Below, one piece after another: positions 1 to 53,274 of a stretch of DNA of 64,000 nt (position 1 is its first letter; each line of letters starts with the position of its first letter). The DNA lies in contig CAZNEH010000002.1 of NCBI GenBank assembly GCA_964572175.1, positions 1,406 through 65,405 of the forward strand. Reading direction: 5' to 3'. Made by a program: the position numbers and the translations under genes. This DNA is from an uncultured Gammaproteobacteria bacterium (GTDB taxonomy: Bacteria > Patescibacteriota > Patescibacteriia > UBA9570 > CAZNEH01). A model generated the notes under the pieces. The model saw only the letters and a program-made list of their open reading frames with translations, searched no databases and was not told the DNA's origin.

Positions 1-1
1 A

Positions 2-580
2 TTTGATAACCCTGTTCTTCAGCCTTATTTTAAAAACTTTAAAATAGACAGCTTGCCTCAGCTTGATATTTTAGCAGAAATAGAAAAAGAAATAGGTTTT
101 AGAATTAAATTAGATAGCGTTGGTCAATCTACTCTTGGTTTTGGTAAATCTGGCTCAGGCTTAGACGCTATTAATTATTATCGCACCAAGCAATTTGAAA
201 AACTAGCTAATTATTGTATAGACGATGTTAAGGTCACTCGCTATGTTTACGAGTACGGCCTTAATCAAGGTCACCTCTGGTATTCTACTGGGGGAAACCT
301 CACTCCTATTCCTTCTTCTTGGAAACAAGAGTCTACTGTTGGAGAAATCATAGACCAGGCCTTTAAAAAACATCACCGCATTAAAATAAGATATTATACT
401 GTTGACGATAACGGCAGTCGACAAATTACAGACCAAGAAGTCGACATTTTAGAAAAAGACGCTAAACGTCTCAAGGCTTTTTGCCATAAAACTTCCAATA
501 AAAAAGATTTTATTATAAAAAATATATTAACCGCGGAAAACACTCAACAAGTTTACGCCCACCAAAGCTCCCTCATATAA
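2..580 (+). CDS. DnaQ-like (DEDDy) 3'-5' exonuclease domain protein, C-terminal part; ORF is open to the window edge, so it is 5'-truncated
   Basis: Frame is open from nt 2. YCIDDVKVT matches the Exo III motif (Y-x3-D) of PolA/RNase D-type exonucleases. AT-rich host-like codon usage. Confidence 0.35.
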   Translation, partial: FDNPVLQPYFKNFKIDSLPQLDILAEIEKEIGFRIKLDSVGQSTLGFGKSGSGLDAINYYRTKQFEKLANYCIDDVKVTRYVYEYGLNQGHLWYSTGGNLTPIPSSWKQESTVGEIIDQAFKKHHRIKIRYYTVDDNGSRQITDQEVDILEKDAKRLKAFCHKTSNKKDFIIKNILTAENTQQVYAHQSSLI

Positions 581-609
581 ATCCTGCGAAGCTAGCGTAG
601 CAGACTAGG

Positions 610-638
610 TTGCAAAATTAGTTAATATCAGCTAAGAT
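610..638 (+). promoter_or_regulatory. sigma70-like promoter TTGCAA-N17-TAAGAT upstream of the island A gene
   Basis: TTGCAA at 610-615, 17-nt spacer, TAAGAT at 633-638. AAGGAGG SD at 683-689 is 8 nt before the GTG at 698. Confidence 0.35.
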
Positions 639-697
639 ATACCCCTGTTTCACTCGTTCCTTCCCCCCCCAAAAAAGTCCTCAAGGAGGTCTTTATC

Positions 698-1723
698 GTG
701 CCCGACTACGAAATTCGTATGATGGATCGTCCGCTCAACGGGCCGGTCGTCGCTCTGGCTACTGGTACCACTGGTCCCAACGACCCTCTCTCTCCAGAGA
801 ACATCGCCGACATCATGGGAGACTACGACATCGGCCCCAAGATCACGGTCTGGCGCATTCCGCCTGGTCAGATCAATCTTCCCAAGCTGGCTGGCCATCG
901 CGCTCCCTGGGACTTCATCGTCATCGAGGGTGAGCATGGCTCCGTGGTCCTGGTCAACTGGCATGGTCCGGGTCATCTGTGGTCGCCCACCGGTGTGCCC
1001 TGGAAGCAGCTGGTCGCCAGCCTCATCTTCTTCGGCGTCACCCACCTGATCAACTCCAGCGCCGTCGGTACCTACGTCGGTGACAAGCTCTACAACGAGG
1101 GTATGTACGTCGGCGACCTGGCCATCCTCGAGCAGCTTCACTGCAACGAGCAGGACTTTGCCTTCTTCGAGAAGCCGCCTCTCCATCTTCCCTTCGCTCA
1201 GCCCTTCTGCTCCATGCTCAACAACATGGTCGCCACCGTGGCTAGCGAAAATCAGGATTTGGGCATGGTTCATCGAGGGGCCTGGTACTACACGATCAAG
1301 GGGCCTCGCTTCGCCACCGCGGCCGAGTCTATGACTCGCAAGAACATGGGCTTCCACCTTTCGGGCATGACCTACGGTCGAGTTGCCGTCCTCCTGCGCG
1401 AGGCCGGTATTCACACTACCACCATCTGCAAGATCGTAGACCAAGATGCCTGGCATGTGCTCATGGCTCAGCGCTCTGGTCAGGAGGTTAGCGTCGAGCA
1501 GGTCGAGCATGCTCTTGGTGAAGCTGGTCCCAAGTGTGCTCGCCTTCAGGTCAGGACTGCTGGCTACCTTCTGGCTCAATTGTCCCATGGTCGAGGAGAG
1601 CCTTCTCGTCGAGAGCTGGCGTGCTCCAACTGCACTCCTGGTCTGCGCAAGAACTTCCATGGCGACTTGAACAACCTCAACTCGGACCAGCGCCAGCTCT
1701 TGGACTTCCTCGAGCGTCGCTAG
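698..1723 (+). CDS. purine nucleoside phosphorylase / 5'-methylthioadenosine phosphorylase family protein (PNP_UDP_1 fold); GC-rich island A
   Basis: HGPGHLWSP, GVTHLINSSAVGTY, HLPFAQPFC and TIKGPRFATAAESMTRKNMGFHLSGMTYGRVAVLLREAGIHTTTICKIVDQDAW align block-by-block with MTAP/PNP. GTG start with strong SD. About 60% GC versus about 35% in the flanks. Confidence 0.75.
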   Translation: MPDYEIRMMDRPLNGPVVALATGTTGPNDPLSPENIADIMGDYDIGPKITVWRIPPGQINLPKLAGHRAPWDFIVIEGEHGSVVLVNWHGPGHLWSPTGVPWKQLVASLIFFGVTHLINSSAVGTYVGDKLYNEGMYVGDLAILEQLHCNEQDFAFFEKPPLHLPFAQPFCSMLNNMVATVASENQDLGMVHRGAWYYTIKGPRFATAAESMTRKNMGFHLSGMTYGRVAVLLREAGIHTTTICKIVDQDAWHVLMAQRSGQEVSVEQVEHALGEAGPKCARLQVRTAGYLLAQLSHGRGEPSRRELACSNCTPGLRKNFHGDLNNLNSDQRQLLDFLERR

Positions 1724-1757
1724 CTCACCCTGGGCCCACGCAGTCTAACATCAAAAC

Positions 1758-1795
1758 GGGCGCTCCTCCCTCGAGGACCGCCCATCTTTTTTTTT
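1758..1795 (+). terminator. intrinsic terminator of the island A gene
   Basis: GGGCGCTCC / GGACCGCCC stem with an 8-nt loop, followed by ATCTTTTTTTTT. Confidence 0.6.
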
Positions 1796-1806
1796 GCTTT
1801 AAACCC

Positions 1807-2082
1807 CTAAAGCATTGAAATAAATTGTGATGCTAACTGAACTTTCTGAAACCAGTTTTTATTTTTCTGAACGGTCTTTATTTTTTTTCTCTTAATTTGC
1901 TTAACCGGTTGAGCGTAGGCTCTCTTAATACTAGGTCCGAATAACTCGACTAATACTTTTTCCGGGGTATTAAGGAACTGTCCGATTGTTCTTATCTCCA
2001 AAGCTTTTAGAACCCTAGCGGTACGTTTTCCAATACCCGGAAGGTATTCTACTGGTAAATTAGATTTTTTGGAGTAAGACAT
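1807..2082 (-). CDS. helix-hairpin-helix DNA-binding protein (ComEA-like HhH)
   Basis: LPGIGKRTARVL is an HhH GIG motif. Small basic protein. Confidence 0.5.
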   Translation of the reverse strand: MSYSKKSNLPVEYLPGIGKRTARVLKALEIRTIGQFLNTPEKVLVELFGPSIKRAYAQPVKQIKRKKIKTVQKNKNWFQKVQLASQFISML

Positions 2083-2170
2083 ATTTTTATATTTTTAATT
2101 TTATTATGAAACCTTGAGTGATTTTAGCCCTCGACTTTAGTCGGGGAGATAAAATCGTACCGAAAGGTTT

Positions 2171-2800
2171 TTAGGCGTTAAATTTTCTAATGATTCCAAC
2201 CACCTTACCCTGAATAATTACATTCTTAACTTTAAGCGGCTCATAGTTTTTATTTCTAGGTTGTAATCTAATATAATTTTTCTCTTTATGAAATTCTTTT
2301 AACGTTGCTGACCCATCTTCTAATAAGGCGACAACAATATCTCCGTTGCTTGCATAGTCTTTTTTCTCTACTACTACATAGTCTCCATCAGCAATTAAAC
2401 TTTCTACCATAGAGTCTCCCTTAACTCTTAACAAATATGTATTAGGATTTTTCACTAACTCTGGAGGTACGGCCATAGTCTCTGTCTTATCTTCTACAGC
2501 TTCGATTGGTTCACCTGCCGTAATTAATCCGGCTACTGGTAATCGATAAGCGGCGTCTTCATCAGTGTGTGTTTCTTCCATATCTGGGCTAGTGATCATG
2601 ATGTCTCTAGCCTTATTTTCACCCCTACTTAGATATCCACTTTCTTCTAATTCTTTTAAATGTTGATGAACCGTAGACTTAGAAGATACTTTTAGTTTTT
2701 TAGCTATTTCCTCTAAAGTGGGGGAATAACCGTTCTTTTGGATGTATTTAACTATAAAATCAATGATTTTCTTCTTCTTTGGGGTTAGTTGTGGAGACAT
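2171..2800 (-). CDS. lexA: LexA repressor (S24 peptidase)
   Basis: N-terminal winged-HTH. C-terminal S24 domain has the GDSM Ser nucleophile and a downstream Lys. Typical length of 209 aa. Confidence 0.9.
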   Translation of the reverse strand: MSPQLTPKKKKIIDFIVKYIQKNGYSPTLEEIAKKLKVSSKSTVHQHLKELEESGYLSRGENKARDIMITSPDMEETHTDEDAAYRLPVAGLITAGEPIEAVEDKTETMAVPPELVKNPNTYLLRVKGDSMVESLIADGDYVVVEKKDYASNGDIVVALLEDGSATLKEFHKEKNYIRLQPRNKNYEPLKVKNVIIQGKVVGIIRKFNA

Positions 2801-2822
2801 ATTTGTTTTTTTAATATTCTTA

Positions 2823-2851
2823 TGTTATCTTAAGAATACCCGAACAGAAAC
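2823..2851 (-). promoter_or_regulatory. lexA promoter (minus strand TTGACG-N17-TATTCT) with an embedded candidate SOS box GTTCGGTTTCTGTTCGG (GTTC-N7-GTTC)
   Basis: The reverse complement of 2823-2851 reads TTGACG TTCGGTTTCTGTTCGGG TATTCT. recA at 40394-40422 has the same architecture. Confidence 0.5.
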
Positions 2852-2898
2852 CGAACGTCAATAGCCACCTGTGGATAAAATGTTTATTAACTAATTAT

Positions 2899-2941
2899 AG
2901 CTACCCTCTCCACAAGAGGTGGAGAGGGGCTGGGGGAGAGG
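2899..2941 (+). repeat. GC-rich palindromic intergenic element, copy 1 (CCCTCTCCAC-loop-GGTGGAGAGGG + GCTGGGGGAGAGG tail)
   Basis: Nearly identical 45 nt to 15250-15292. Family of 6 copies. Confidence 0.7.
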
Positions 2942-2942
2942 C

Positions 2943-3977
2943 ATGAATATTAAACAAAAACTAAAAATATTAGGCCAAGCTGCGGCTCACGACACTTGTG
3001 ATCCTGGTTGTAAATTATTAAAAGTATTAATGAGTAATGCTTGTGTTAATAATTGTAAATATTGTGCTTCTCGCCGCGAAAACAATATCGAAAGAGCAAC
3101 ATTCGAACCTGAAGAATTAGCCAGACTTTTTATGCAGCTCGTTAGAAAAAAATGGGTCTATGGAATTTTTCTAAGCTCAGCCGTCATCGGTACGACAAAC
3201 TACACCATGAAGCAAATGATCCAATGTGTATATCTAATTCGTAGTTGGGGATTTGGCGGATACATTCATCTAAAAGTTTTACCTGGCGCCGGCGAAGATA
3301 TTTTAGAGTATGCTTCTAAGTTAGTTGATCGCATGAGCGTAAACCTCGAAGCGCCTGGATCTAAATTTTTAAAACAAACCTGCCCAGACAAAAATTATTA
3401 CTCTGACCTACTCAAGCCCATGCAGTTTAATAAGACTTTAAATTTAAATCATGGCCAAACCACTCAAATGGTCGTGGGTGCCACTGACGAGCGTGATCAA
3501 GATATTTTAGATGTTTCCGACAATCTTTATTCTGACATGAAACTTAAGCGAGTTTACTATTCTGCTTTTCAACCTATTAACCAAGAGGGTCAAGGCGGGG
3601 TTCTTCCGCCATCTAGAGCCAAACGAGAATGGCGTCTTTATCAGGCCGATGCTTTATTACGATTTTATGGGTTCAACAAACAAGACTTTGTTTATAATGA
3701 TAAAAAGAATCTATACCTTACCATGGACCCCAAACAAGCCTGGGCTAAACAAAATTTATCCAAACCCATAGAAATTAACCAAGCTGATCGCGACTTATTA
3801 ATGAAAATACCCGGAATCGGCCCTAAAACGGCTGACAACATCTTAGATTTTCGTAAATCCAAGTGCATTACCCAAGATTATGAGCTAAAAAAGCTTAAAT
3901 TAAATATTCCCAAAGCTAGAGATTACCTTTTATTACAAGGGAAGATGTTGCCACAGCAGTTGACCTTTTTGTCATAA
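2943..3977 (+). CDS. radical SAM protein with C-terminal HhH motif, putative DNA repair/modification rSAM; divergent from lexA
   Basis: CVNNCKYC is the CxxxCxxC radical-SAM motif. IPGIGPKTADNIL is an HhH motif. Start is taken at MNIKQ (2943), because the ORF-track N-terminus MERGWGRG is translation of the palindromic repeat. Confidence 0.7.
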   Translation: MNIKQKLKILGQAAAHDTCDPGCKLLKVLMSNACVNNCKYCASRRENNIERATFEPEELARLFMQLVRKKWVYGIFLSSAVIGTTNYTMKQMIQCVYLIRSWGFGGYIHLKVLPGAGEDILEYASKLVDRMSVNLEAPGSKFLKQTCPDKNYYSDLLKPMQFNKTLNLNHGQTTQMVVGATDERDQDILDVSDNLYSDMKLKRVYYSAFQPINQEGQGGVLPPSRAKREWRLYQADALLRFYGFNKQDFVYNDKKNLYLTMDPKQAWAKQNLSKPIEINQADRDLLMKIPGIGPKTADNILDFRKSKCITQDYELKKLKLNIPKARDYLLLQGKMLPQQLTFLS

Positions 3978-4019
3978 AATAGTAAAACTAAAAGGCACCT
4001 TCCAACATCGGAGTCCTCC

Positions 4020-4943
4020 ATGGACAAGTTTCTTCACTTCGCCTTCGGCCGATACTCCCGCATCCGTCGAGGCATCTTCTTCTGCATCATGTTCATCCTC
4101 TTCCTCTTCACCATCTCCTACCCTTTCCTCCTGGCTGCCGCGTACTTCCTCATCCTCCTGCTCATCGACTTCAAGATCTGCCACCACTACATGTCCAAGA
4201 TGCCGTCCGATGGTCAGTGGAGTCTGAGGCGGACTGGTGCGCAGATGATCTTCGCCGAAGAAGGTCTCTCCTTCTATCGTGACGCATTCCTGCGCTATCA
4301 AAAGACAGAGCAGCATCGCATCCGTGAAGAAGGGGAGCAGCGCCAGCGTGAGGCCCGGGCTCTTCGTCTCCAGCGCCAGCAGAAGCACGAGCGTCGCATC
4401 CTCGATCTCATCGTCTTAGCCCAGGAAGTGGTCTCCAAGAAGGTCATGGTTCTTCTCCCTCCGGAGATGCAGTGGCTGTGTTCTATCGACGAGCTCACCA
4501 GCTTCCTGCAGGCTGGAGACAACGCTCGCCTGACCAGCTTCCAGACCGCTGCTCAGCGAGCTATCGAACTTTCTATTTGGCTTCAACGGGCTAGGATCGT
4601 CAAGGTCGAGGTCAAGTTCATCAAACTGGTCCGCAAGAATCACGTCCAGGAAGCTAGGGCACTGGTAGTAGAAGCTGAGAGCTACGCCGTTGCCTTGGAG
4701 CAAGCCAAGGAACTGGGTATCCGGCACACCCCAAACATCCCCATCGGCGACCTTAGAGCCTTGATCCAACACTTCGAGAAGATCAAGGGCCGCAATCGGC
4801 AGATCCTGGTCTGGCAGCAACAGATCGATCAAGGCGATCCCAGGCAGCGCAAACTTCTGACCGCGGTCCAAGCCGCAGTCAAGGGCACTGACCGTCAGTG
4901 GCGCAAGGCCGTCTACGACTTGGAGCAAGCGCTCGAAGCGTGA
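4020..4943 (+). CDS. hypothetical membrane-anchored coiled-coil protein; GC-rich island B
   Basis: Two N-terminal TM helices, then a long Arg/Glu/Gln-rich helical region. About 55% GC. GGAG SD 6 nt upstream. No terminator separates it from the upstream rSAM gene. Confidence 0.55.
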   Translation: MDKFLHFAFGRYSRIRRGIFFCIMFILFLFTISYPFLLAAAYFLILLLIDFKICHHYMSKMPSDGQWSLRRTGAQMIFAEEGLSFYRDAFLRYQKTEQHRIREEGEQRQREARALRLQRQQKHERRILDLIVLAQEVVSKKVMVLLPPEMQWLCSIDELTSFLQAGDNARLTSFQTAAQRAIELSIWLQRARIVKVEVKFIKLVRKNHVQEARALVVEAESYAVALEQAKELGIRHTPNIPIGDLRALIQHFEKIKGRNRQILVWQQQIDQGDPRQRKLLTAVQAAVKGTDRQWRKAVYDLEQALEA

Positions 4944-4950
4944 GACAAAG

Positions 4951-4988
4951 GGAGCTACCTCCTCGTGAGCTAGCTCCTGTTTTTTTTA
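4951..4988 (+). terminator. intrinsic terminator of the island B gene
   Basis: GGAGCTA...TAGCTCC stem followed by TGTTTTTTTT. Confidence 0.6.
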
Positions 4989-5204
4989 TTCTATCTTTAG
5001 ATTTTTGCATAAACGATCCACCTTCTTATTTAGCCTTTCAAACTTATCTTCAGGTATTTTTTTCTCATGTTTAATTATCTGACAAACTGGCTTTCCATAT
5101 TTTTCAATCACTAATATTATATCTTTATAATAAACTTCATTAATCAAAGACCCAATATTAGCCCTTAAATCCATTAAGCTAACTGTTTTTACTTGTTTTT
5201 TCAT
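4986..5204 (-). CDS. Phd/YefM-family antitoxin-like protein; no cognate toxin adjacent
   Basis: N-terminal KTVSLMDLRANIGSLINEV and the IIVIEKYGKPVCQII beta-strand pattern are typical of Phd/YefM. 72 aa. Confidence 0.55.
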   Translation of the reverse strand: MKKQVKTVSLMDLRANIGSLINEVYYKDIILVIEKYGKPVCQIIKHEKKIPEDKFERLNKKVDRLCKNLKIE

Positions 5205-5271
5205 ATAAAATGTATTAATTATTATAATATTATATATTAATTATATCAATTCTATTTAAATTATCAATACA

Positions 5272-10072: not shown

Positions 10073-13000
10073 ATGGCCCAGAAAACAAAAAAGAACGCAT
10101 TTTACTTATCTAGCGCTGTTTTTATTATATTGCTCAGCGTTTTTTTATTTAATTATCCTCCTCAAGAAACAAAAGCATTAACTACTATTAGCTGTGTTAC
10201 TGATACTGCTGTGAGCTCAGCTAGTTATAACACAAGTCATGACCTAGCTTTTAGTGCCGGAGGAGGAAATAATACCTGTGTTTTAACTGGTGATTTTAGT
10301 GTTAATTCTGTTACAGTGAACCCTAATGTTATTTTAACTCATACCGCTGAAAACGCAGATGGAGTTAGTATTACCACGGTTGATTATTTTACTTTAGATG
10401 TTAATGCATCTATCAATGTAGATGAAAAAGGCTGTAACGGTGAGTCTGATGCTGGTGGTTGGGGTCCTAATGCTTCTAATGTTTGCGCTGAATATGATGC
10501 TGGTTGGGGAGATGGCTCTATAAATGGATGGAATGGTACTCAAGGAGCTGGTCATGGTGGAGCCGGAGGACTAGGAACAGACGCTGCTTATGATGATGGT
10601 GGTCTTACCTATGGGTCTCCTACTGCTCCAATTTTATTTGGTTCTTCTGGTGGTCCAGCCTTTGATGACGGTGGAACCTCTGGTGATGGCGGTGGGTTAA
10701 TTATATTAAATATTGGCGGAACTTTTACTCATGACGGGTCTATCTCAGCTAATGCTGGAAACGGTAGTGGAGCTGAGGGTCCAGATTCTAAAGCTTCTGG
10801 TGGTGGATCTGGTGGATCCATTAATATTACCGCTAACTCCATAACTGGTTCTGGAGACTTTGCTGCAGATGGTGGAAATGGTGGAAATGGTACTGATGAT
10901 GACGCCGGTGGTGGAGGTGGGGGCGTATCGCGGTTAAATATGCTGGTGGTGATTATAGTTTTGATTCTACGGATTTTAGCGTAGCTGGCGGAACTATTAC
11001 TGATGGAGCAACCGCTGGAGACAAGGGAACAGTTTATGTAGAAAATACAACCTCTAATGCTGTTAATATTTATCATGGCTTTACCTATGCTTCAGATTAT
11101 AGTGAAGCATCTTGGACTGTAGATTCTTCCGCAACTAACCAATATTGTAACTATGGTGACCCTGATGAAACTGATGAGGCCACTCCTTCAATTACTGTTA
11201 CCGGAGCTCTTACTTTAACCGGGACTTTTGATTGCTCAGATAGCAATGTTACTAGTTTTGATACCGCCGTTGGTACAAGCATGAGCTTAACCGCTCTTAC
11301 TTTTACTTTAGCGGCCGAAGATGTTTGGACTATGAACGATGCTGTTCCTGCTACTGTAACTTCTTCTTCTGCTATTAACTCTAATGTTGAATGGACAAAT
11401 TTAACCAGTCTTAGTATAGATAGCACTTCTAGTATTAATGCTAATGAAAAAGGATGTGCTAGCGAAGGTGCTTCTTATGGTTACTTCCCAGATACTGATC
11501 CTGGAAATTATAATGTTTGTATAAATGCAGAGCCTGCTGGTAATGGCGGTGGACAAGGTAGTGACGGAGGGTGGATTGGCTCCCAAGGGGCTGGTTTTGG
11601 TGGGGCTGGAGGACTAGGTTCTGACGCAGGTTATAGTAATGGTGGCGTGGTCTATGGCTCTAATACTGCGCCTGATTTATTTGGTTCTGCTGGCGGTCCA
11701 GCTTGGGCTGATGATCCTGGTTCTGGTGATGGCGGTGGATTAATTCGCTTAGATGTTGATGGAACTTTTACTCATAATGGTGCCCTTTCTGTAGATGGTG
11801 GATCTGGTGGAGCAGCTACTAATGCTTCTGGTGGTGGATCTGGTGGGTCAATTTATATTACGGCTAGTGAAATATCAAATGGTGCTGGCTCAGACGGTAC
11901 ATTTTCTGCTGATGGTGGCCCTGGTGGAGATGGTAGTGGAGACGATGGTGGTGGTGGAGGCGGAGGACGAATCTCTGTTAGCGCTGTAGACAGTTTTGAC
12001 AATCTAGGCACTTTAACTGCGGCTGGCGTAGCCACTGGCGGAACTGCCACTGGAACTGCGGCTGCTGGTTCTAACGGTACTCTTTATACTCTTTTTTACA
12101 CTGCTCCAGACCAACCAACTCTTAGTCCTTCAGACTCTGCTCGTAACATGGCCCTAACTAGCTCAGCTTATTCTTCAAATGGTGCTTCCCATACTTCTAC
12201 CGATTGGTATGTTTGTACAGATGGCGCTTGCGATGCTAACAGTCTAGTTTGGTATTCAGAAGACGATGCTTCTAACCTAGAATCAATAACTGTAAATACT
12301 ACTAACGGAACTTTTTCAGGAGACTTAGCTGGTAAAACAAAACTTGCTCCAGCAACTAATCATCAAATAAAAGTTCGCCATACTAATGCCGCTGGTGATT
12401 CTACTTGGAGTGTATTTACTGGTCAAAATACCATTGCTAACAATGTTCCTTCCACTCCTACTAACTCTTCGCCAACAGACGCTGCTACAGATCAATCTAA
12501 AACTCCAACAATTTCTGCCTCTTCATACTCAGACTCAGATTCAGATACTCATACTTACAGCACTTGGAATACTTATGAATCTTCAGACTGTTCAGGAAGT
12601 GAAATTTGGTCTTCTGGATCAGTTGCCGCTAATGAATCTACCACTATTAATGAAGCAAGTGGAGCTTTTTCAGACAGTCACTTAGGTGAGGCAGACTTAA
12701 AAGGACATACCCAATATTCTTGGCAAGTAAGATATGACGATGAATACGATGGTCAATCAAGTTATTCAGCTTGTACCACTTTTACTACTTTAAACACTAC
12801 TCCAGTCGCTAGTGCTGGCTCAGACCAAACAGTTATTGAAGGAACTGACGCTACCTTAACGGCTACTTCTACAGATGATGACTGGAATGACACACCAACT
12901 AACACTTGGATAGAGTCTTTAGACTCTTCAGATGGGTGTACTCTTTCTGGAACAACTGCCACTACCTCAAATAAAGAAACTTCTTACACTTGCCAATTCC

Positions 13001-13878
13001 AAGTTACAGCTGACGATGGATCAAGTGGAGAGGATACAGACACCATGACTTTAACTGTCACCGCAGACAATGATGCTCCTGCTCTAGGTTCCATGGAAAC
13101 AAGTGTTACTATCGATGAAGAAGATACTCTTCTTGCCACCTACACTGCCACAGACGCAGACACTGCTTCTCTAAGTTTTACTGCTTCAAGTTTACCAACA
13201 GGCTCAACTTTAACAGATAACTCTAATAATACTGCTACTTTAACTTGGACCCCAGACTCAACTCAATCAGGAACATACACTTTAACTCTTCAAGTCTCAG
13301 ACGGCACAACTGCAGTCACTCAAAATATTACCATCACTGTAAACGACACAGTCCAAGACGAAGAGGAAGAAGAACCAGTAAACACCATCGAAGACATTGG
13401 TCTAGTCTCTGGCACAGAATCAGGCCCAGGTATTGTCACTTTATACGACAACGACAATGAAGAATTATGTTCAGTTAGAGCTTGGAACGAGGGTGGGTCA
13501 GTTCCATTCGCAGTTCGTTTCCTAGACACTACTTACGTGGCAGTTGTAAAAAATAAAGTAGGCACTACTATTCACCTTTATGATCTAAATTGTAATATTA
13601 TTGAGAAAAAGAGATTATCACCTAAACTACATCCTCGTAACATTGTCACTAGAAACTTCTTAGGTAAAACTACTTCTCAAGAAATAGGTTTAACCTCACG
13701 AAGAGGAAGCACAGTATATGGTAAGATCTTCAGATATAATCCAAACAAAGACAAATGGTACTTACTAAGACAAAAAACATTTAGACCAGTTCCAACTGGA
13801 TATAACCTAAAGAAAACCAAAAAAGGAAATATTCTCATCAAGAAAAACAATAAAACTCTCCACAAGTGGGAGATATAA
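10073..13878 (+). CDS. giant Gly-rich cell-surface protein (paralog of 33699-37490), interrupted by a single-nucleotide frameshift in a G5 tract near 10919-10923; pseudogene, phase-variable gene or sequencing error
   Basis: ORF-track pieces 10073-10984 and 11281-13878 are one gene. Frame B is open from 10921, and its translation GRIAVKYAGGDYSF parallels GRAAIYYNDASGFT in the intact paralog. Total length is 3806 nt, which is 3n-1. Confidence 0.7.
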
Positions 13879-13892: not shown

Positions 13893-13922
13893 AAGCCCCG
13901 ACTGAAGTCGGGGCCTTTTATT
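13893..13922 (+). terminator. intrinsic terminator after the giant gene
   Basis: GCCCCGACT-GA-AGTCGGGGC stem followed by CTTTTATTAT. Confidence 0.7.
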
Positions 13923-13970: not shown

Positions 13971-14011
13971 CCCCCTCTCCACGAAGGTGGAGAGGGGGCT
14001 AGGGGGTGAGG
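13971..14011 (+). repeat. GC-rich palindromic intergenic element, copy 2
   Basis: CCCCCTCTCCACGAAGGTGGAGAGGGGG + CTAGGGGGTGAGG. Confidence 0.7.
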
Positions 14012-14022
14012 AAAGAAGAAAT

Positions 14023-15249
14023 ATGAAACAAATAGTTAAAAAGTTAATTCCTAAATCAGGATTATCCTTATATCATAAAAGCCTAGCTTATTTAGCTGAT
14101 TCTTGTTATAAGCATCCTTCTCGCCAGTTAAAGGTTATCGGAATTACCGGTACTAAAGGAAAATCTACGGTAGCTAATTTAGTTTGGCATATTCTAACTC
14201 TTTCTAATCACAAGGTTGGCCTTACTTCTACTGCTAATATAAAAATAGGCGACAAAGAAAGAATGAATCCTTATAAGATGACTATGCCTGGACGGTTTGA
14301 AATGCAAAGATTGTTAAAAGAAATGGTCGACGCTGGTTGCGACTATGCAATTATTGAAACCACTTCTCAAGGAATCCTTCAATGGCGTCATGCTTGTATA
14401 GATTATAATGTTGTTGTCTTCACCAATCTTTACCCAGAGCACATAGAGGCTCATGGCGGGTTTGAAAATTATAAAAAAACTAAACTAGAATTATTTAAAA
14501 TAAACCCCAAAGTAAGTGTTATCAATATTGACGATGAGAATCATAAAGAATTTTTAGACCAGCCTGCTGAACAAAAATATACTTTCTCTCAGTCAGAAGT
14601 TAGCGACCTAGAAGTAGATAAAACAGGAATAAATTTTACATATAAAAACATTCGCTTCGAAGTTCCTCTTTTAGGAGAAGTTAATTTATTAAATATTTTA
14701 GCCGCTATTAAGATTGCTGAGTCTCAAGAAATTAAGATTGATCAAATCGCTCGAGCTTTATATACTTTTCCTGGAGTCCCTGGTCGTATGGAACTAATCA
14801 ACGAAGGTCAAGATTTTACCGTTATTGTCGACTATGCCCACGAACCTCGAGGCGTAGAACTTTTATATAAATTTTTAACTAAAATAAAAACTAATAAAAT
14901 AATCACTGTCACTGGATCTTGCGGTGGAGGTAGAGACGAGTGGGTTCGAAAGATTAAAGGGGAGCTAGCTGATAAATATTGTGATTATGTAATAGTAACC
15001 AACGAAGATCCCTATGACGAAGATCCGCAAGTTATTATAGACCAAGTTAGCCAAAGTATTCCCCCAGAAAAATTATTTAAGATTTTAGACCGTAAAGAAG
15101 CCATTAAAAAGGCTTTTGAGCTGGCTGAGTCCGGAGATATCGTCGTTTTAACTGCTAAAGGCTCAGAACAAGCTATTGTTGGTAAAAATATGAAGAAAAT
15201 CCCCTGGGACGAAAGAGAAGTAGCTAGAAAACTGCTTAAAAACAGCTAA
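14023..15249 (+). CDS. Mur ligase family protein (MurT/MurE/FolC-like central and C-terminal domains)
   Basis: GITGTKGKST P-loop of Mur ligases, and a TNLYPEHIEAHGG motif. Start at MKQIVKK, because MERGLGG comes from the repeat. Confidence 0.7.
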   Translation: MKQIVKKLIPKSGLSLYHKSLAYLADSCYKHPSRQLKVIGITGTKGKSTVANLVWHILTLSNHKVGLTSTANIKIGDKERMNPYKMTMPGRFEMQRLLKEMVDAGCDYAIIETTSQGILQWRHACIDYNVVVFTNLYPEHIEAHGGFENYKKTKLELFKINPKVSVINIDDENHKEFLDQPAEQKYTFSQSEVSDLEVDKTGINFTYKNIRFEVPLLGEVNLLNILAAIKIAESQEIKIDQIARALYTFPGVPGRMELINEGQDFTVIVDYAHEPRGVELLYKFLTKIKTNKIITVTGSCGGGRDEWVRKIKGELADKYCDYVIVTNEDPYDEDPQVIIDQVSQSIPPEKLFKILDRKEAIKKAFELAESGDIVVLTAKGSEQAIVGKNMKKIPWDEREVARKLLKNS

Positions 15250-15292
15250 TAGCTACCCTCTCCACGAAGGTGGAGAGGGGCTGGGGGAGAGG
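15250..15292 (+). repeat. GC-rich palindromic intergenic element, copy 3
   Basis: Near-identical to copy 1. Confidence 0.7.
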
Positions 15293-15326
15293 CAAGAGAG
15301 GAATCTGCATAACCTGTGGATAAAAA

Positions 15327-15366
15327 AGCTCCCTCTCCACGAAGGTGGAGAGGGCGGGGGGAGAGG
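15327..15366 (+). repeat. GC-rich palindromic intergenic element, copy 4 (tandem to copy 3, separated by a CCTGTGGATAAAA motif)
   Basis: Near-identical to copy 6 at 53235-53274. Confidence 0.7.
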
Positions 15367-15438
15367 AATTCCTAACTTTAGCCATTTTTTCTTCATGTGG
15401 ACAAAAAACTTGACAATTTTTTAGCTGGGCTTGACAAA

Positions 15439-15596: not shown

Positions 15597-18500
15597 ATGC
15601 CTACAAAAAAAACACTATCCCAGCGTCGTTATTTCTCATCATCACAAGACGCTATCCCATTGCCAAATCTAATTGAAGTTCAAAAAGCTTCCTACGATTG
15701 GTTCTTACAAGAAGGGCTTAAAGAATTATTAGACGAGATTTCTCCGATCGAAGACTTTACTGGTCGCGATTTAGAAATCAGCTTCACCGATTATTATCTA
15801 GATGAACCTCGTTTCGACGAAAAAGTTGCTAAAGACAAGAACATTACCTTTGAAGCTGCTCTAAGAGTTAACGCTGTTTTAACCAACAAAAGAAGTAAGA
15901 CTAAAAAAGAGCAAGAAGTTTATTTAGGAGATTTTCCTTTAATGACTGATCGCGGTACTTTTATTATTAATGGTATTGAAAGAGTAGTAGTTAACCAGCT
16001 GATTCGTTCCGCTGGTGTATTTTTTACCTCAGAAATTATCAAAGGACGCCGACACTATGGAGCTAAGATTATTCCTAATCGTGGTGCTTGGTTAGAATTT
16101 GAAACTGATGCTAAAGGATTTATCTGGGTTAAAGTTGATCGTAAAAGAAAAGTTGCCGCTACTTCCTTATTAAGAGCTTTTGGTTTAAGTACTGATGAAG
16201 AAATTATTAAAGCTTTTGCTAAAGTAGACACTGGTGACCATAAATTTATTACTGAAACTATTACTAAAGACTTAGCCAAGTCTGAGGGTGAAGGACTAAA
16301 AGAAGTTTACAAAAGAATCCGTCCAGGTGATCTAGCTACTGTAGATAATGCTCGTGGTTTAATCCACTCTATGTTCTTCAACTTCTCTCGTTACGATTTC
16401 GGTAGAGTAGGTCGTTATAAAATCAACAAGCGTTTTGGTTTTGATCTTCCTATTACTAAAGAAAACCGTGTTTTACGCTTAGATGATTTAATTTCTGTTT
16501 TATCAGAAATTATTCGCTTAAATAATACTCAAGACGAAGCTGACGATATTGATCATTTAGGAAACAGACGTGTTCGAGCCGTGGGTGAATTAGTTCAAAA
16601 CAAATTCCGTATTGGTTTAGCTCGAATGGAACGTATTGTTAAAGACAGAATGTCTACGACTGATGTTGATGCCTTAACTCCTGGGCAACTTATTAATGCT
16701 CGTCCAGTGATTGGGTCTGTTAAAGAATTTTTCATGTCTTCTCAGTTGTCTCAATTCATGGACCAAATTAATCCTTTATCAGAGTTAGAGCATAAACGAA
16801 GATTATCTGCTATGGGTCCTGGTGGTCTTTCTAGAGAGCGTGCTGGATTTGAAGTTCGTGATGTACATAGAACTCACTACGGCCGTATCTGTCCAATTGC
16901 TACTCCTGAAGGTCCAAACATTGGTCTAGTTGGTCACTTAGCTTGTTATGCTAGAATTAATGAATTTGGTTTTGTTGAAACTCCTTTCTTAAAAGTAAAA
17001 GATGGAAAAGTTTCTACCGAAGTAGCTTGGCTAGATGCTTTTGAAGAAGAAAAAACCACTACTGTTGCTGCCACTACAGAAGTAGATGACAACGGCAAGA
17101 TTGTTAAAGAAATGGTAGAAGCTCGAAAAAACATGCATCCTAAAATTGTAAACGTTTCCGAAGTAGAATACATGGATGTTTCTCCAAAACAAATTATTTC
17201 TATTGCTACTTCCTTAATTCCTTTTGTAGAACATGATGATGCGGTTCGTGCCCTAATGGGAACAAACATGCAACGTCAGGCTGTTTCTTGTATTAAGCCT
17301 GATTCTCCAATTATTGGAACTGGTGTAGAGGCTCGTTCTGCGATCGATTCTGGCCACGTAGTTTTAGCTAAAGAAGCTGGAGAAGTGACCAGTCTTTCTT
17401 CTCATGAAATTAAAGTTACTACTAAAAAAGGAGATGTTTATACTCACGGTTTAGGAAAATTTGTTAGATCAAATGCTTCCACTTGTATGAATCAACGTCC
17501 TACTGTTAATATTGGCGACAAAGTTAAAAAAGGCGACGTTATGGCCGATGGACCTTCTACCGATAAAGGTGAATTAGCCTTAGGTCAAAACGTATTAGTA
17601 GCTTACATGCCTTGGGAGGGCGGTAACTACGAAGACGCTATCTTAATTTCTGAGCGCTTAGTTGGTCAAGACAAATATACTTCTATTCATATTGAAGACT
17701 ACACTGTAGATATTCGTGATACTAAACTTGGGCCAGAAGTAATTACTCGAGACATCCCGAATGTTTCTGAAGAAAAATTAAAAGACTTAGATGAAAATGG
17801 AGTTATTCGTATCGGAGCTAAAGTAGCCTCTGGAGACATCTTAGTTGGTAAAATTACTCCTAAGGGTGAAACTGAATTATCTGCTGAAGAAAAATTATTA
17901 CGCGCTATTTTTGGTGAAAAAGCCAAAGACGTTAAAGACTCTTCTTTATACTTAGAACATGGTGAGCATGGAAAAGTAGTTGATATCAAAGTTTTTTCTA
18001 AAGAAGAAGGCGATAAGCTTCCTTCTGGAGTTATTAAAACCATTCAAGTTTCTGTGGCTCAGCTAAGAAAGATCCAAGTAGGTGATAAAATGGCTGGTCG
18101 TCATGGTAACAAAGGTGTTATTTCTAGAATCGTTCCTTTGGCTGACATGCCATTTAGAGAAGACGGTACTCCAGTAGATATTATTTTAAATCCTCTAGGT
18201 ATTGTTTCTCGTATGAACTTAGGCCAAGTTTTAGAAACTCACTTAGGATTAGCTGCCGAAGCTCTAGGATATAAGGCTGCAATTCCTGCTTTCTCTAGAG
18301 TAAAAGAATCTGTTATTTCAGAAGAGCTTAAAAAAGCTGGCTATCCTGAATCTGGAAAAATTACTCTTTACGACGGTCGTAGCGGAGACAAATTCTACGA
18401 ACCAGTTACTTGTGGATATTCTTATATGCTTAAACTAAACCATTTAGTTGAAGATAAGATTCACCAACGTTCAATTGGTCCTTACTCTCTGGTTACTCAA

Positions 18501-18821
18501 CAACCTCTAGGTGGTAAAGCACAATTTGGTGGACAACGTTTCGGAGAAATGGAAGTTTGGGCCTTAGAAGGATACGGTGCGGCCCATACTTTACAAGAAA
18601 TTTTGACCATTAAATCAGATGATGTTCCTGGTCGAAGTAAAGCTTACGAATCAGTTATTAAAGGTGAGCCAATCAAAAACTTAAATATTCCTGAATCCTT
18701 TAACGTATTAGTCCGCGAATTAAAAGGACTATGTCTTGAAGTTGAACTTATTGAACCAGAAAAGAAAGAAGAGCCTGAGTCTCCTGACGAGGGCGGAGAG
18801 TCTAAACAAGATAACGAATAA
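15597..18821 (+). CDS. rpoB: DNA-directed RNA polymerase subunit beta
   Basis: Full-length rpoB homology. Confidence 0.97.
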
Positions 18822-33637: not shown

Positions 33638-33686
33638 TGCTATAATATAAGTATGAAACAAATTAAGGACAACCCTAGGGTTGTCC
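33638..33686 (+). promoter_or_regulatory. extended -10 promoter TGCTATAAT plus a 20-nt perfect palindrome GGACAACCCTAGGGTTGTCC in the leader of the giant protein gene
   Basis: Palindrome at 33667-33686, which is 12 nt before the ATG at 33699. Confidence 0.4.
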
Positions 33687-33698
33687 ATACATATTATT

Positions 33699-37500: not shown

Positions 37501-37539
37501 CCCCCTCTCCAGACGTGGAGAGGGGGTTTGGGGGTGAGG
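37501..37539 (+). repeat. GC-rich palindromic intergenic element, copy 5
   Basis: CCCCCTCTCCAGACGTGGAGAGGGGG + TTTGGGGGTGAGG. Followed by TGCTATAAT at 37548-37556. Confidence 0.7.
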
Positions 37540-39740: not shown

Positions 39741-40392
39741 TCAAAAAAATATCAGCGCCCCTACTTTAGGGGAAAAATTATATCAGGTTCGCCAAGCTCA
39801 AGAGCTATCTCTCGAAGAAATTAGCTCTAAGGTTAAAGTTAAAAAAGAATACTTAGAATATCTAGAAAAAGGTCAGTATGATTTATTGCCCAGCGCTGTT
39901 TTTGTTGAAAATTATTTAAAAGTTTATTCTCAATTTCTACATTTACCATGGGATAAAGTTAAACAAGTTTATCAAGAAGAACAACTTGCTTTTAAACAAT
40001 CTCCAGAGCCCCCTAAACAATCTGCTAAGCATCACGGCCGCCCAGCCTTACTTCTTCCTAAGTTTATAACCCTAGCCTTAGTCTTTATAATTTTACTAGT
40101 TTTCTTTATTTATTTAGGCTTGCAGATTAATAATTTTTTACAACCCCCTTCTTTAGAATTAAGCAGTCCTACAGACAATATCACTATAGATGAGCGTTTT
40201 ATCGAGGTTACTGGTAAAACCGCTCCAGAGGCCCAAATTTTGATAAATAACCAGGAAATAGCTGTCGACAAAGAGGGTCAGTTTAATGAATTAGTGTCTT
40301 TACAGCCAGGATTAAATACCCTGGAAATAACTGCTAAAACCAAACATAGTAGGGAACAGGTTGTTTATAAACAGATCGTTGTGGATAACTAA
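39727..40392 (+). CDS. RodZ-like protein (N-terminal HTH, TM segment, C-terminal DUF4115-like domain); start uncertain (39706/39715/39727)
   Basis: LGEKLYQVRQAQELSLEEIS...LEYLEKGQYDLLP matches the RodZ HTH. Confidence 0.55.
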   Translation: MTKFNQKNISAPTLGEKLYQVRQAQELSLEEISSKVKVKKEYLEYLEKGQYDLLPSAVFVENYLKVYSQFLHLPWDKVKQVYQEEQLAFKQSPEPPKQSAKHHGRPALLLPKFITLALVFIILLVFFIYLGLQINNFLQPPSLELSSPTDNITIDERFIEVTGKTAPEAQILINNQEIAVDKEGQFNELVSLQPGLNTLEITAKTKHSREQVVYKQIVVDN

Positions 40393-40393
40393 A

Positions 40394-40422
40394 TTGACGT
40401 TCGGCTTTTGTTCGGTTATGAT
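40394..40422 (+). promoter_or_regulatory. recA promoter TTGACG-N17-TATGAT with an embedded candidate SOS box GTTCGGCTTTTGTTCGG (GTTC-N7-GTTC)
   Basis: 15 of 17 positions identical to the lexA box, in the same position between -35 and -10. Confidence 0.55.
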
Positions 40423-40457
40423 GTACACAGAGTTAGTTCCCTCTTAATAATTAGTAA

Positions 40458-40477
40458 AGACGCGATTAATCGCGTCT
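40458..40477 (+). promoter_or_regulatory. 20-nt perfect palindrome AGACGCGATTAATCGCGTCT in the recA 5' UTR
   Basis: Same core as the recA terminator. Lies 9 nt upstream of the ATG, with no SD between. Confidence 0.5.
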
Positions 40478-40486
40478 CAACAAAAA

Positions 40487-41494: not shown

Positions 41495-41507
41495 AATCTT
41501 ACAAAAT

Positions 41508-41547: not shown

Positions 41548-41561
41548 ATATTACAAGAAAA

Positions 41562-53234: not shown

Positions 53235-53274
53235 AGCTCCCTCTCCACGAAGGTGGAGAGGGCGGGGGGAGAGG
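53235..53274 (+). repeat. GC-rich palindromic intergenic element, copy 6
   Basis: CCCTCTCCACGAAGGTGGAGAGGG + CGGGGGGAGAGG. Confidence 0.7.

What the first reader, a model, noticed from the sequence alone, without database searches (positions are those of the whole stretch)
2899..2941. Novel six-copy GC-rich palindromic intergenic element, always in the same strand orientation
The element is CCCTCTCCAC-(GAA/AGA)-GGTGGAGAGGG followed by a G(C/T)(T/G)GGGGGAGAGG tail. Copies lie at 2899-2941, 13971-14011, 15250-15292, 15327-15366, 37501-37539 and 53235-53274. Copy pairs 1/3 and 4/6 are nearly identical over 40-45 nt. All six have the G-rich tail on the plus strand, whatever the direction of neighbouring genes. 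The tail GGGGGAGAGG is an alternative pairing partner for the left arm, so the RNA could adopt two mutually exclusive hairpins. A CCTGTGGATAAAA motif accompanies copies 1 and 4. The element causes spurious MERG(W/L/F)G N-terminal extensions in ORF calls. It could be a REP/MITE-like element, a protein-binding site or a strand-specific DNA signal (the strict orientation argues against simple terminators).
Basis: seen in the sequence. Interest (0 to 1): 0.65.

Follow-up and report, generated by a model that had tools for sequence, protein, structure and literature searches.

The report
Hairpin repeat linked to DUF559 nuclease
The six GC-rich hairpins are real, but they are orphan copies of a 42-base repeat found in many bacterial phyla, where inverted pairs of it flank a small nuclease gene (DUF559) and supply that gene's stop codon, so it looks like a selfish REP-like element with an unusual partner enzyme.

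Summary
All six copies sit at the stated coordinates, all with the tail on the + strand. No further copy exists in the window, and none is expected by chance.

The element is not specific to this Patescibacteria genome. The same unit, T-CCCCCTCTCC-loop-GGAGAGGGGG-2 to 4 nt-GGGG(T/A)GAGG-T, occurs in more than a dozen phyla and in viral contigs, in both orientations.

Close inverted pairs always have their tails pointing outward (18 versus 0). In 12 of 12 DUF559 genes examined, the element forms the 3' end of the gene. DUF559 is a Vsr/EDxHD-like PD-(D/E)XK nuclease. The reading frame runs through the hairpin (..SPSPxxGEGxRG*) and stops at the TGA in the tail. Eleven of the 12 genes also have an inverted copy upstream.

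The window copies are therefore best read as non-autonomous REP/MITE-like satellites of a DUF559-associated element. That DUF559 mobilises them is inferred, not shown, and no DUF559 gene lies in the window.

The two-hairpin switch is energetically disfavoured. The strand-signal idea fails at family level. CCTGTGGATAAAA is a separate promoter-associated motif. I found no Rfam family or paper describing the element.

The parts
2899..2941 (+). Copy 1, subtype A. AGCTA; 5' arm 2904-2913; loop AAGAG; 3' arm 2919-2928; linker GCT; tail GGGGGAGAGG 2932-2941. It lies between divergent lexA (2171-2800, -) and the radical-SAM repair gene. The tail ends 1 nt before that gene's ATG at 2943.
13971..14011 (+). 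Copy 2, subtype B, which equals the family consensus. CCCCCTCTCCAC-GAAG-GTGGAGAGGGGG-CTA-GGGGGTGAGG. It lies about 55 nt downstream of a classical terminator (13895-13914), and its tail ends 11 nt before the murE ATG (14023). The GTG at 13987 gives the spurious 420-aa MurE call.
15250..15292 (+). Copy 3, subtype A. TAGCTA then the hairpin at 15256-15279, linker GCT, tail 15283-15292. It starts directly after the murE stop codon (15247-15249).
15327..15366 (+). Copy 4, subtype A. It is a direct repeat 34 nt after copy 3 and 230 nt upstream of rpoB. On the minus strand the hairpin is followed by AGCTTTTTTA, which is terminator-like.
37501..37539 (+). Copy 5, subtype B. CCCCCTCTCCA-GACG-TGGAGAGGGGG-TTT-GGGGGTGAGG. 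It lies 10 nt after the stop of the 1269-aa surface protein gene and 47 nt before the ftsK ATG (37587). It occupies the position where the paralogous gene (11281-13878) has a classical terminator.
53235..53274 (+). Copy 6, subtype A, identical to copy 4 over 40 nt. It lies between two minus-strand genes. The tail side is 10 nt from the uvrA stop (53285). The hairpin side is 12 nt from the ATG of the 303-aa ORF (53222). Here the C-rich strand is the transcribed one.

Best explanation
The six copies are orphan, non-autonomous members of a widespread repeat family about 42 nt long. The family unit is a 10-12 bp hairpin, CCCCCTCTCC(A)/(T)GGAGAGGGGG, then a 2-4 nt linker, then the tail GGGG(T/A)GAGG, with sharp ends.

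In its complete form the unit is a small cassette. One copy with its tail pointing outward lies about 90-110 nt upstream of a 110-150 aa DUF559 gene. DUF559 is a Vsr/EDxHD-type PD-(D/E)XK endonuclease. A second, inverted copy forms the last 12 or so codons of that gene (SPSP-xx-GEG-x-RG), and the TGA in its tail is the stop codon. Short doublets without the gene, double-tailed single hairpins and solo copies are derivatives of this cassette.

By analogy with REP/REPIN elements and their RAYT transposase, I infer that the DUF559 nuclease recognises or cuts the hairpin-plus-tail and thereby keeps the repeats spreading or homogenised. This step is not shown.

In this compact Patescibacteria genome the copies sit in the only tolerated places: short spacers within 0-12 nt of start or stop codons. 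Their effects on neighbouring genes (stable 5'- or 3'-UTR hairpins, an SD-like purine tail before two start codons) are probably side effects.
For: **Family membership (shown).** Copies 2 and 5 match the consensus of 199 non-redundant instances essentially base for base. Conservation stops abruptly at the flanking T on each side. The subtype A tail GGGGAGAGG is the minority family variant, 19 of 199.

**Distribution (shown).**
- They come from Chloroflexota, Gemmatimonadota, Bacteroidota, Myxococcota, Desulfobacterota, Acidobacteriota, Zixibacteria, Spirochaetota, Cyanobacteria, Planctomycetota, Armatimonadota, Patescibacteria (L020, L092) and others.
- 113 of the core hairpins carry the unforced tail.
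- The element is also in 73 viral contigs.

**Unit architecture (shown).**
- Opposite-orientation neighbours within 700 bp are tails-outward 18 times and tails-inward 0 times.
- Spacers cluster at 17-31 bp and at 403-469 bp.
- There are 13 double-tailed hairpins.

**DUF559 link from the DNA side (shown).** tblastn of a DUF559 ORF against the roughly 197 loci held at that point plus the window hits only 6 places. Each lies between or beside elements. Pfam DUF559 scores are 1e-29 to 1e-35.

**DUF559 link from the protein side (shown).**
- 82 of the best 120 DUF559 homologues end exactly in ..PSPxxGEGxRG, and 7 more carry it near the end.
- A second, divergent clade shows it in 23 of 114.
- Six more DUF559 genes fetched by protein identity all have the element at the 3' end, and five of them have an inverted copy upstream.

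**Nuclease identity.** P0137 matches PDB 3HRL (5e-15) and 3R3P, the homing endonuclease I-Bth0305I (7e-5). The relation of the EDxHD family to Vsr is described in PMC3384342, and PMC9403480 places a DUF559 gene in the EDxHD family. D, E and H residues are invariant in alignment A1.

**Within-genome amplification.** Loops are shared within a genome but differ between genomes. In the window the loop is GAAG in 4 copies.

**Not conserved at an orthologous site.** The nearest relative found (MurE 67% identical, L198) has no element upstream of murE.
Against: - No DUF559 gene or remnant lies in the window or in the 1.25-kb extension L121. The rest of the genome could not be read.
- No insertion polymorphism and no target-site duplication was seen, so mobility is inferred from the distribution only.
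- A 120-aa nuclease cannot carry out strand transfer by itself, so the spreading mechanism is unknown.
- In Gemmatimonadota the DUF559 cassette is syntenic between species about 80-85% identical in the flanking DNA. That points to vertical inheritance there.
- Five of the six window copies abut a start or stop codon, which could also reflect selection for a host function.
- All six share one orientation, which this model does not explain except as chance (about 1/32).
- A DUF559 gene without the C-terminal signature still has a variant hairpin upstream (L206). DUF559 loci could therefore be preferred targets rather than sources.
Confidence: 0.68

Rival explanations
1. Host cis-regulatory RNA element. 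The hairpin would act as a transcription stop or 3'-end stabiliser for the upstream gene. The purine tail would be a Shine-Dalgarno module held single-stranded for the downstream gene.
For: - Five of six copies lie within 12 nt of a start or stop codon.
- Copy 5 sits where the paralogous gene has a classical terminator.
- The tails of copies 1 and 2 end 1 and 11 nt before ATG codons supported by homology.
- Family-wide, the C-rich strand follows an ORF stop within 40 nt in 69 of 199 cases, against 29 for the other side.
- The hairpins are very stable.
Against: - No T-run follows the hairpin on the + strand. Only copies 4 and 5 look like terminators, and only on the minus strand, opposite to the flanking genes.
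- Orientation relative to transcription is inconsistent: five copies have the G strand transcribed and one the C strand.
- The stem sequence, not merely the pairing, is near-invariant across phyla with very different transcription and translation signals, including Bacteroidota.
- The element is absent at the murE site in the nearest relative.
- This reading is compatible with exaptation of a selfish repeat rather than being an alternative origin.
Confidence: 0.15
2. The copies are relics of decayed DUF559 cassettes. Each would mark the 3' end (or 5' inverted repeat) of a former nuclease gene rather than an independently spreading unit.
For: - Copy 2 read in the TGA frame gives PPLHEGGEGARG*, the same peptide type as the intact L095 gene (SPPLHERGEGDRG*).
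- Solo copies keep the TGA in 179 of 199 cases.
Against: - No DUF559-like coding remnant lies next to any window copy.
- The DNA upstream of the copies is a functional gene end, a terminator or a promoter.
- Subtype A copies have lost both the frame and the stop codon, yet 4/6 are identical over 40 nt and 1/3 nearly so, which points to recent copying of the short unit itself.
- Short doublets with 17-31 bp spacers recur in many genomes.
Confidence: 0.08
3. Strand-specific DNA signal tied to replication or segregation, in the manner of KOPS, Chi or an architecture-imparting sequence.
For: - All six copies have the tail on the + strand.
- The tail is a G-rich purine octamer-like motif.
- ftsK lies next to copy 5.
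Against: - In other genomes both orientations occur within single 8-kb loci. The first count gave 22 opposite against 42 same-orientation neighbour pairs. The updated count over 215 instances gave 27 against 43, with 18 tails-outward doublets.
- Copy 6 lies where GC skew and gene direction have flipped relative to copies 1-5, yet it keeps the same orientation.
- The palindromic part contains the motif on both strands.
- Six copies give a chance probability of only about 1/32.
Confidence: 0.05
4. RNA switch with two mutually exclusive hairpins, in which the 5' arm pairs either with the 3' arm or with the tail.
For: In subtype A the tail GGAGAGG is perfectly complementary to CCTCTCC in the 5' arm.
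Against: - With the 3' arm blocked, the best fold is -10.7 kcal/mol (copy 3) or -8.5 (copy 2), against -24.0 and -27.0 for the main hairpin.
- The main hairpin also forms first during transcription.
- The consensus tail GGTGAGG gives a U-U mismatch.
- The conservation of the tail is explained by the Arg-Gly-stop codons and the unit end.
Confidence: 0.03

Closest known systems
REP / REPIN elements with their RAYT (TnpA-REP, Y1 HUH transposase)
   Same: - Short GC-rich extragenic palindromes present in many copies.
- They occur as singlets and as inverted doublets.
- The associated enzyme gene is flanked by two repeats in inverted orientation.
- The enzyme gene can be vertically inherited at a fixed locus.
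- Copies sit near gene ends.
   Different: - The partner here is a PD-(D/E)XK Vsr/EDxHD-like DUF559 nuclease, not a Y1 HUH transposase.
- There is no GTAG or CGTC tag.
- The 3' repeat is inside the enzyme's reading frame and supplies its stop codon.
- The same repeat sequence is shared across many phyla, whereas REPs are genus- or species-specific.
Bacterial MITEs (for example Correia/NEMIS, Nezha, ERIC)
   Same: - Non-autonomous short repeats with terminal inverted repeats.
- They insert close to genes and are co-transcribed.
- They can supply hairpins or regulatory signals.
   Different: - Window copies are single ends about 40 nt long, not full TIR-to-TIR units.
- No target-site duplication was seen.
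- No DDE transposase parent was found.
- The inverted repeat itself contains a perfect hairpin.
EDxHD homing endonucleases (I-Bth0305I) and Vsr
   Same: The DUF559 proteins flanked by the element match the I-Bth0305I catalytic domain (3R3P) and 3HRL, and keep invariant acidic and His residues. The family includes free-standing selfish nuclease genes.
   Different: - Homing endonucleases sit in introns, inteins or specific host genes and have one long target.
- Here the gene is bounded by a dispersed palindromic repeat.
- No N-terminal DNA-binding domain is present.
- No activity has been tested.
Intrinsic (Rho-independent) terminators
   Same: A stable GC-rich hairpin just downstream of stop codons. 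Copies 4 and 5 are followed by a T-run on the minus strand.
   Different: - There is no U-tract on the strand of the flanking genes.
- The stem sequence is invariant across phyla.
- A defined purine tail is present.
- Copies also sit directly upstream of start codons.

Membership tests
Hairpin-tail repeat family associated with DUF559 (defined here from 199 instances) | Stem CCCC(C)TCTCC(A) / (T)GGAGAGGGG(G) with a 3-6 nt variable loop | tested here: met
   All six window copies meet this. Family consensus.
Hairpin-tail repeat family associated with DUF559 (defined here from 199 instances) | A 2-4 nt linker followed by the tail GGGG(T/A)GAGG on one side of the hairpin, with conservation ending sharply after it | tested here: met
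   Linkers are GCT, CTA, GCT, CG, TTT and CG. Tails are GGGGGTGAGG (copies 2, 5) and GGGGGAGAGG (copies 1, 3, 4, 6). In the family the two tail types occur 179 and 19 times.
Hairpin-tail repeat family associated with DUF559 (defined here from 199 instances) | A DUF559 gene in the same genome, bounded by inverted copies with tails pointing outward | tested here: inconclusive
   None found in the 64-kb window plus L121. The feature is met in 12 of 12 DUF559 loci examined in other organisms.
Hairpin-tail repeat family associated with DUF559 (defined here from 199 instances) | Inverted doublets with tails outward | tested here: not met
   The window has only same-orientation copies. Copies 3/4 form a direct pair 34 nt apart. 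Family-wide the count is 18 outward against 0 inward.
REP elements (with RAYT) | Short (20-40 bp) imperfect palindrome, multi-copy and extragenic | tested here: met
REP elements (with RAYT) | Conserved GTAG or CGTC tetranucleotide at one end (Di Nocera 2013, PMC3733652) | tested here: not met
   The family consensus shows only a T at -1 and a T at +1. CTAC precedes the stem only in copies 1 and 3. The sequence is not mentioned in PMC3733652.
REP elements (with RAYT) | Association with a Y1 HUH transposase (RAYT) gene flanked by REPs | tested here: not met
   Clustering of 1370 ORFs from the 194 loci then held showed no recurrent transposase family. That clustering did not surface DUF559 either. 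The only protein found consistently bracketed by the repeats is DUF559. The genome-wide absence of RAYT in the window's organism is not testable.
MITE | Terminal inverted repeats bounding a 50-500 bp unit | tested here: not met
   Window copies are single ends. Doublets with terminal inverted repeats exist in other genomes.
MITE | Target-site duplication flanking the unit | tested here: inconclusive
   No repeated flank was seen beyond the single conserved T/A. No empty-site comparison was available.
Intrinsic terminator | GC-rich hairpin followed by a U-tract on the transcribed strand | tested here: not met
   None on the + strand. Only copies 4 and 5 qualify, and only on the minus strand, opposite to the flanking genes.
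Polar chromosomal signals (KOPS / Chi type) | Orientation follows replication direction, with no mixed orientation within a replichore | tested here: not met
   Mixed orientation occurs within 8-kb loci in many genomes. Window copy 6 keeps its orientation across the skew and gene-direction switch. Whole-genome data for this organism are not available.
Rfam RNA families | Match at gathering score to any of 4227 covariance models | tested here: not met
   No hit on the window and none on 20 element-rich loci apart from tRNA and tmRNA. Only sub-threshold chance hits appear at E up to 10.

The most novel reading that the evidence does not exclude
This would be a cross-phylum REP-like system whose dedicated enzyme is a roughly 120-aa Vsr/EDxHD-type DUF559 nuclease instead of a HUH transposase.

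The nuclease gene is bounded by inverted hairpin-tail repeats, and the downstream repeat encodes its own C-terminus and stop codon. The enzyme nicks or cuts the extruded hairpin. Through repair or replication-coupled copying, this spreads and homogenises solo copies and doublets throughout the genome, even in streamlined Patescibacteria. The same 42-nt sequence is kept nearly unchanged in more than a dozen phyla and in phages.
Probability: 0.35. Interest if true: 0.8.

Novelty: new variant of a known kind. Interest (0 to 1): 0.6.

Why it matters
If the link holds, it has four consequences.

- **A role for DUF559.** This is one of the commonest bacterial domains of unknown function. It would become the partner nuclease of a dispersed palindromic repeat.
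- **A second REP-like system.** It would be an independent solution, alongside REP/RAYT, to maintaining short hairpin repeats. It is unusual because the repeat sequence itself is conserved across phyla.
- **Better annotation.**
  - The 3' arm's GTG creates false N-terminal extensions (MERG..), as in the public MurE call.
  - Many DUF559 proteins carry an element-encoded ..SPSPxxGEGxRG tail.
  - DUF559 genes often sit on very short contigs.
- **Patescibacteria genomes.** A genome with very short intergenic spacers (uvrA-to-next-gene is 62 nt) carries about one copy per 10 kb, packed against start and stop codons.

Tried and rejected
- **Rfam.** No family matches, on the window at gathering score, on the copy 3/4 region at E up to 10, or on 20 element-rich loci.
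- **Literature by literal sequence (DNA and RNA spelling).** Only unrelated eukaryotic hits.
- **REP literature.** The Di Nocera 2013 and Quentin 2018 papers do not contain the sequence. Elhai 2008 is not held.
- **Literature on DUF559, EDxHD and 'very short patch repair' plus 'palindromic repeat'.** No paper describes flanking repeats.
- **DnaA-box idea for TGTGGATAA.** The count is at chance, 16 against 15.7. I reinterpreted it as a promoter-proximal motif.
- **Metagenome scan with the window's exact 24-mer.** Only three unrelated high-GC contigs, so no more loci from this lineage.
- **Plasmid BLAST.** One Pseudanabaena hit, unannotated.
- **Neighbour-gene clustering for a transposase.** Nothing recurrent except phage structural genes. 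It also missed DUF559, which was noticed only on reading the L095 doublet.
- **The search for related loci for DUF559 in viral contigs.** One attempt failed and one was empty.
- **Exact-protein look-ups.** The look-ups of MurE and of P0001 returned nothing.
- **Ideas considered but not testable or not needed.** Triplex or mirror-repeat and G-quadruplex readings of the arm-plus-tail, and an anti-SD mimicry reading. The coding and stop-codon explanation accounts for the tail.
- **Wobble-pair strand test.** Rejected. The common CCTCGCC variant is a mismatch on both strands.

Full report
**1.

They cannot be chance:
- The 24-nt core matches four copies exactly, with none in 100 shuffles.
- The 3' arm with up to 1 mismatch gives 14 matches against 0.5 expected.
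- The tail with up to 1 mismatch gives 12 against 1.8 expected.

A fuzzy search found no seventh copy and none with the tail on the minus strand. There are two subtypes:
- Subtype A (copies 1, 3, 4, 6): AGCT(A)-CCCTCTCCAC-loop-GTGGAGAGGG-GCT/CG-GGGGGAGAGG.
- Subtype B (copies 2, 5): CCCCCTCTCCA(C)-loop-(G)TGGAGAGGGGG-CTA/TTT-GGGGGTGAGG.

The hairpin is the minimum-energy fold on both strands, at -20 to -28 kcal/mol. The GTG in the 3' arm opens the spurious ORF extensions at 2919, 13987 and 37515. The public 420-aa MurE record contains one of them.

**2. Genomic setting.**

The window is low-GC DNA (about 38%) from a Patescibacteria genome. Its MurE is 100% identical to an NCBI protein on a 68.7-kb contig. 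The next relative is 67% identical. The rest are about 50% identical and are named Magasanikbacteria, Kerfeldbacteria, Buchananbacteria or Parcubacteria. A Logan contig from SRR8146440 is identical to window positions 1-5259.

The neighbouring genes are:

| Gene | Coordinates | Strand |
|---|---|---|
| lexA | 2171-2800 | - |
| TIGR03916 radical-SAM repair gene | 2943-3977 | + |
| murE | 14023-15249 | + |
| rpoB | 15597-18821 | + |
| 1269-aa surface protein | 33681-37490 | + |
| ftsK | 37587-39740 | + |
| recA | 40487-41494 | + |
| uvrA | 53285-56119 | - |

Five of the six copies lie within 12 nt of a start or stop codon.

**3. The element is not specific to this genome.**

The organisms span Chloroflexota, Gemmatimonadota, Bacteroidota, Myxococcota, Desulfobacterota, Acidobacteriota, Zixibacteria, Spirochaetota, Cyanobacteria, Planctomycetota, Armatimonadota, Proteobacteria and Patescibacteria (Amesbacteria L020, Saccharibacteria L092).

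A uniform-composition estimate allows a few tens of chance matches to the hairpin alone in 596 Gb. This figure is my own calculation. However, 113 of the core hairpins are followed or preceded by a tail that the search did not require, GGGG(T/A)GAGG. The same unit is in 73 IMG/VR contigs.

From 199 non-redundant instances the consensus is T-CCCCCTCTCC(A)-loop-(T)GGAGAGGGGG-linker of 2-4 nt-GGGGTGAGG-T. No conservation extends beyond the flanking T on either side. The window's GAGAGG tail is the minority variant, 19 of 199. Loops are shared within a genome and differ between genomes, which is the signature of amplification within each genome.

No Rfam family matches. I found no paper containing the sequence.

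**4. Architecture of the family.**

Elements occur in both orientations, and most are intergenic. The ends are not equivalent.
- Among neighbouring copies of opposite orientation within 700 bp, 18 have their tails pointing outward and none inward.
- Thirteen single hairpins carry a tail on both sides.
- Spacers between outward-facing pairs fall into a short class (17-31 bp), a few of 78-170 bp, and a long class (403-469 bp).

**5. The long class contains a gene.**

Reading the L095 pair showed an ORF with the DUF559 motif. tblastn of that ORF against every locus then held plus the window gave six hits. Every one lies between or beside elements. All six ORFs score 1e-29 to 1e-35 on Pfam DUF559.

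The reading frame runs through the downstream hairpin and stops at the TGA inside the tail. The sequence TCC CCC TCT CCA nnn nnT GGA GAG GGG nnn nGG GGG TGA reads S-P-S-P-x-x-G-E-G-x-R-G-stop. The upstream copy lies about 90-110 nt before the start codon, inverted, with its tail outward.

**6. Independent test from the protein side.**

A profile of the six ORFs retrieved 7879 proteins at E of 1e-10 or better among the 8000 candidates scored.
- Of the best 120, 82 end exactly in the element-encoded peptide and 7 more have it near the end. Many of these sit on contigs of 0.5-2 kb.
- A divergent clade reached with a Bacteroidota-like query shows the peptide at the C-terminus in 23 of 114 and N-terminal read-through in 7.
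- Six further DUF559 genes were fetched by exact protein identity (L199/L201, L205, L210, L212 and two in L213). All carry the element at their 3' end, and five of them have the inverted upstream copy.
- A DUF559 gene chosen because it lacks the signature (L206) still has a variant hairpin plus GGGGTGAGG just upstream of its ATG.
- Variant stems near DUF559 genes change both arms together, for example CCCCCTTCCC/GGGAAGGGGG in L081. Pairing is therefore preserved where the sequence drifts.

**7. What the protein is.**

P0137 matches PDB 3HRL ('endonuclease-like protein', 5e-15) and 3R3P, the catalytic domain of the homing endonuclease I-Bth0305I (7e-5). That enzyme founded the EDxHD family, which is related to Vsr (PMC3384342). 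PMC9403480 places a DUF559 gene in the same family. Alignment A1 keeps invariant Asp, Glu and His residues in the DFYC...(I/L)E(V/L)DG..H core.

In Gemmatimonadota the cassette sits at the same locus, between a ChlI/ComM-like gene and a tRNA-binding/ispG pair, in two species whose flanking DNA is 80-85% identical. There it is inherited vertically, as domesticated RAYTs are.

**8. Interpretation for the window.**

The six copies are orphan members of this family. There is no DUF559 gene or remnant in the window or its 1.25-kb extension. The rest of the genome could not be reached: the exact 24-mer found only three unrelated high-GC metagenome contigs.

The nearest relative found has a plain terminator and promoter, not the element, upstream of murE. 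Copy 5 lies exactly where the paralogous surface-protein gene has a classical terminator; the two genes have identical 3' ends. The near-identity of 1/3 and the identity of 4/6 over 40 nt argue for recent copying of the short unit.

I therefore read them as non-autonomous REP/MITE-like satellites. That DUF559 is the enzyme acting on them is an inference from architecture and from analogy with REP/RAYT. Nothing here shows cleavage or mobility.

**9.

- **Two exclusive hairpins.** The complementarity exists in subtype A, but the alternative fold is 13-18 kcal/mol weaker. The consensus tail also mismatches the 5' arm.
- **Strand-specific signal.** This fails at family level. In the window, copy 6 keeps its orientation although GC skew and gene direction have reversed by 53 kb. 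A 6/6 result is about a 1-in-32 event.
- **Terminator.** No T-run follows the hairpin on the + strand. Copies 4 and 5 look like terminators only on the minus strand.
- **Possible host use.** The tail ends 1 nt before the radical-SAM ATG and 11 nt before the murE ATG. Both starts are supported by homology. Family-wide, the C-rich strand follows a stop codon within 40 nt in 69 of 199 cases, against 29 for the other side. Exaptation as a UTR hairpin or RBS spacer therefore remains possible.
- **CCTGTGGATAAAA.** This is separate from the element. TGTGGA(T/C)AA lies about 5 nt upstream of -35-like TTGAC boxes at lexA, rpoB and recA, and DnaA-box counts are at chance.

**10. Novelty and limits.**

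As a kind of thing this is a REP-like repeat. The variant features are:
- the PD-(D/E)XK DUF559 partner;
- the repeat supplying the gene's C-terminus and stop codon;
- the cross-phylum constancy of the sequence.

I found no description of this in Rfam or in the searchable literature. That library omits most subscription journals, so prior description cannot be excluded.

The main gaps are the missing remainder of this genome, the absence of any filled-versus-empty site comparison, and the absence of biochemistry.

Noticed in passing
window 2840-2857 (-) and 40398-40415 (+): An 18-nt direct-repeat box, CGTTCGG-nTTnT-GTTCGG, overlaps a TTGACG -35 hexamer. It occurs exactly twice: in the lexA / radical-SAM divergent promoter and upstream of recA. 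This is probably the LexA operator of this Patescibacteria lineage, and it is a direct repeat rather than a palindrome.
   Followed up: partly
window 2870-2878, 15315-15323, 15396-15404, 40380-40388, 33286-33294: TGTGGA(T/C)AA has the sequence of a DnaA box. At lexA, rpoB and recA it lies about 5 nt upstream of -35-like TTGAC hexamers, in either orientation. The overall count is not above chance, so it may be an upstream promoter element or a regulator site.
   Followed up: partly
window 13800-13878 and 37412-37490: Two large Ig/cadherin-like surface protein genes (865 and 1269 aa) have identical last 78 nt up to the stop codon. One is followed by a classical terminator and the other by element copy 5.
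   Followed up: partly
window about 40000-46000: Cumulative GC skew peaks at about 40 kb. Gene orientation changes from mostly + strand (3-41 kb) to minus strand (52-64 kb). This may be a replication terminus region, next to ftsK and recA. No dif site was searched for.
   Followed up: no
L178 4339-4651 (IMG/VR contig) and L094 1430-2440 (Anaerolineae MAG): The element also forms head-to-tail arrays: six or more units at a 57-bp period in a viral contig, and a larger double-tailed version at a 209-bp period in an Anaerolineae MAG.
   Followed up: no
L199-L205 (Gemmatimonadota), gene at 3001-3396: The DUF559 cassette occupies the same position, between a ChlI/ComM-like gene and a tRNA_bind/ispG pair, in two species with 80-85% identical flanks. 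One species has two upstream inverted copies and the other has one.
   Followed up: partly
window 13987-15249; protein P0001: The public NCBI protein for MurE (420 aa) starts at the GTG inside the element's 3' arm. The homologous start in the nearest relative corresponds to the ATG at 14023 (408 aa). The same artefact affects the ORFs at 2919 and 37515.
   Followed up: yes
window 4020-4943 and 52311-53222: Two ORFs of 307 and 303 aa have no Pfam or NCBIfam match. The first follows the TIGR03916 radical-SAM gene, where a UDG-like partner gene is usually found. The second lies directly downstream of uvrA, separated from it only by copy 6.
   Followed up: no
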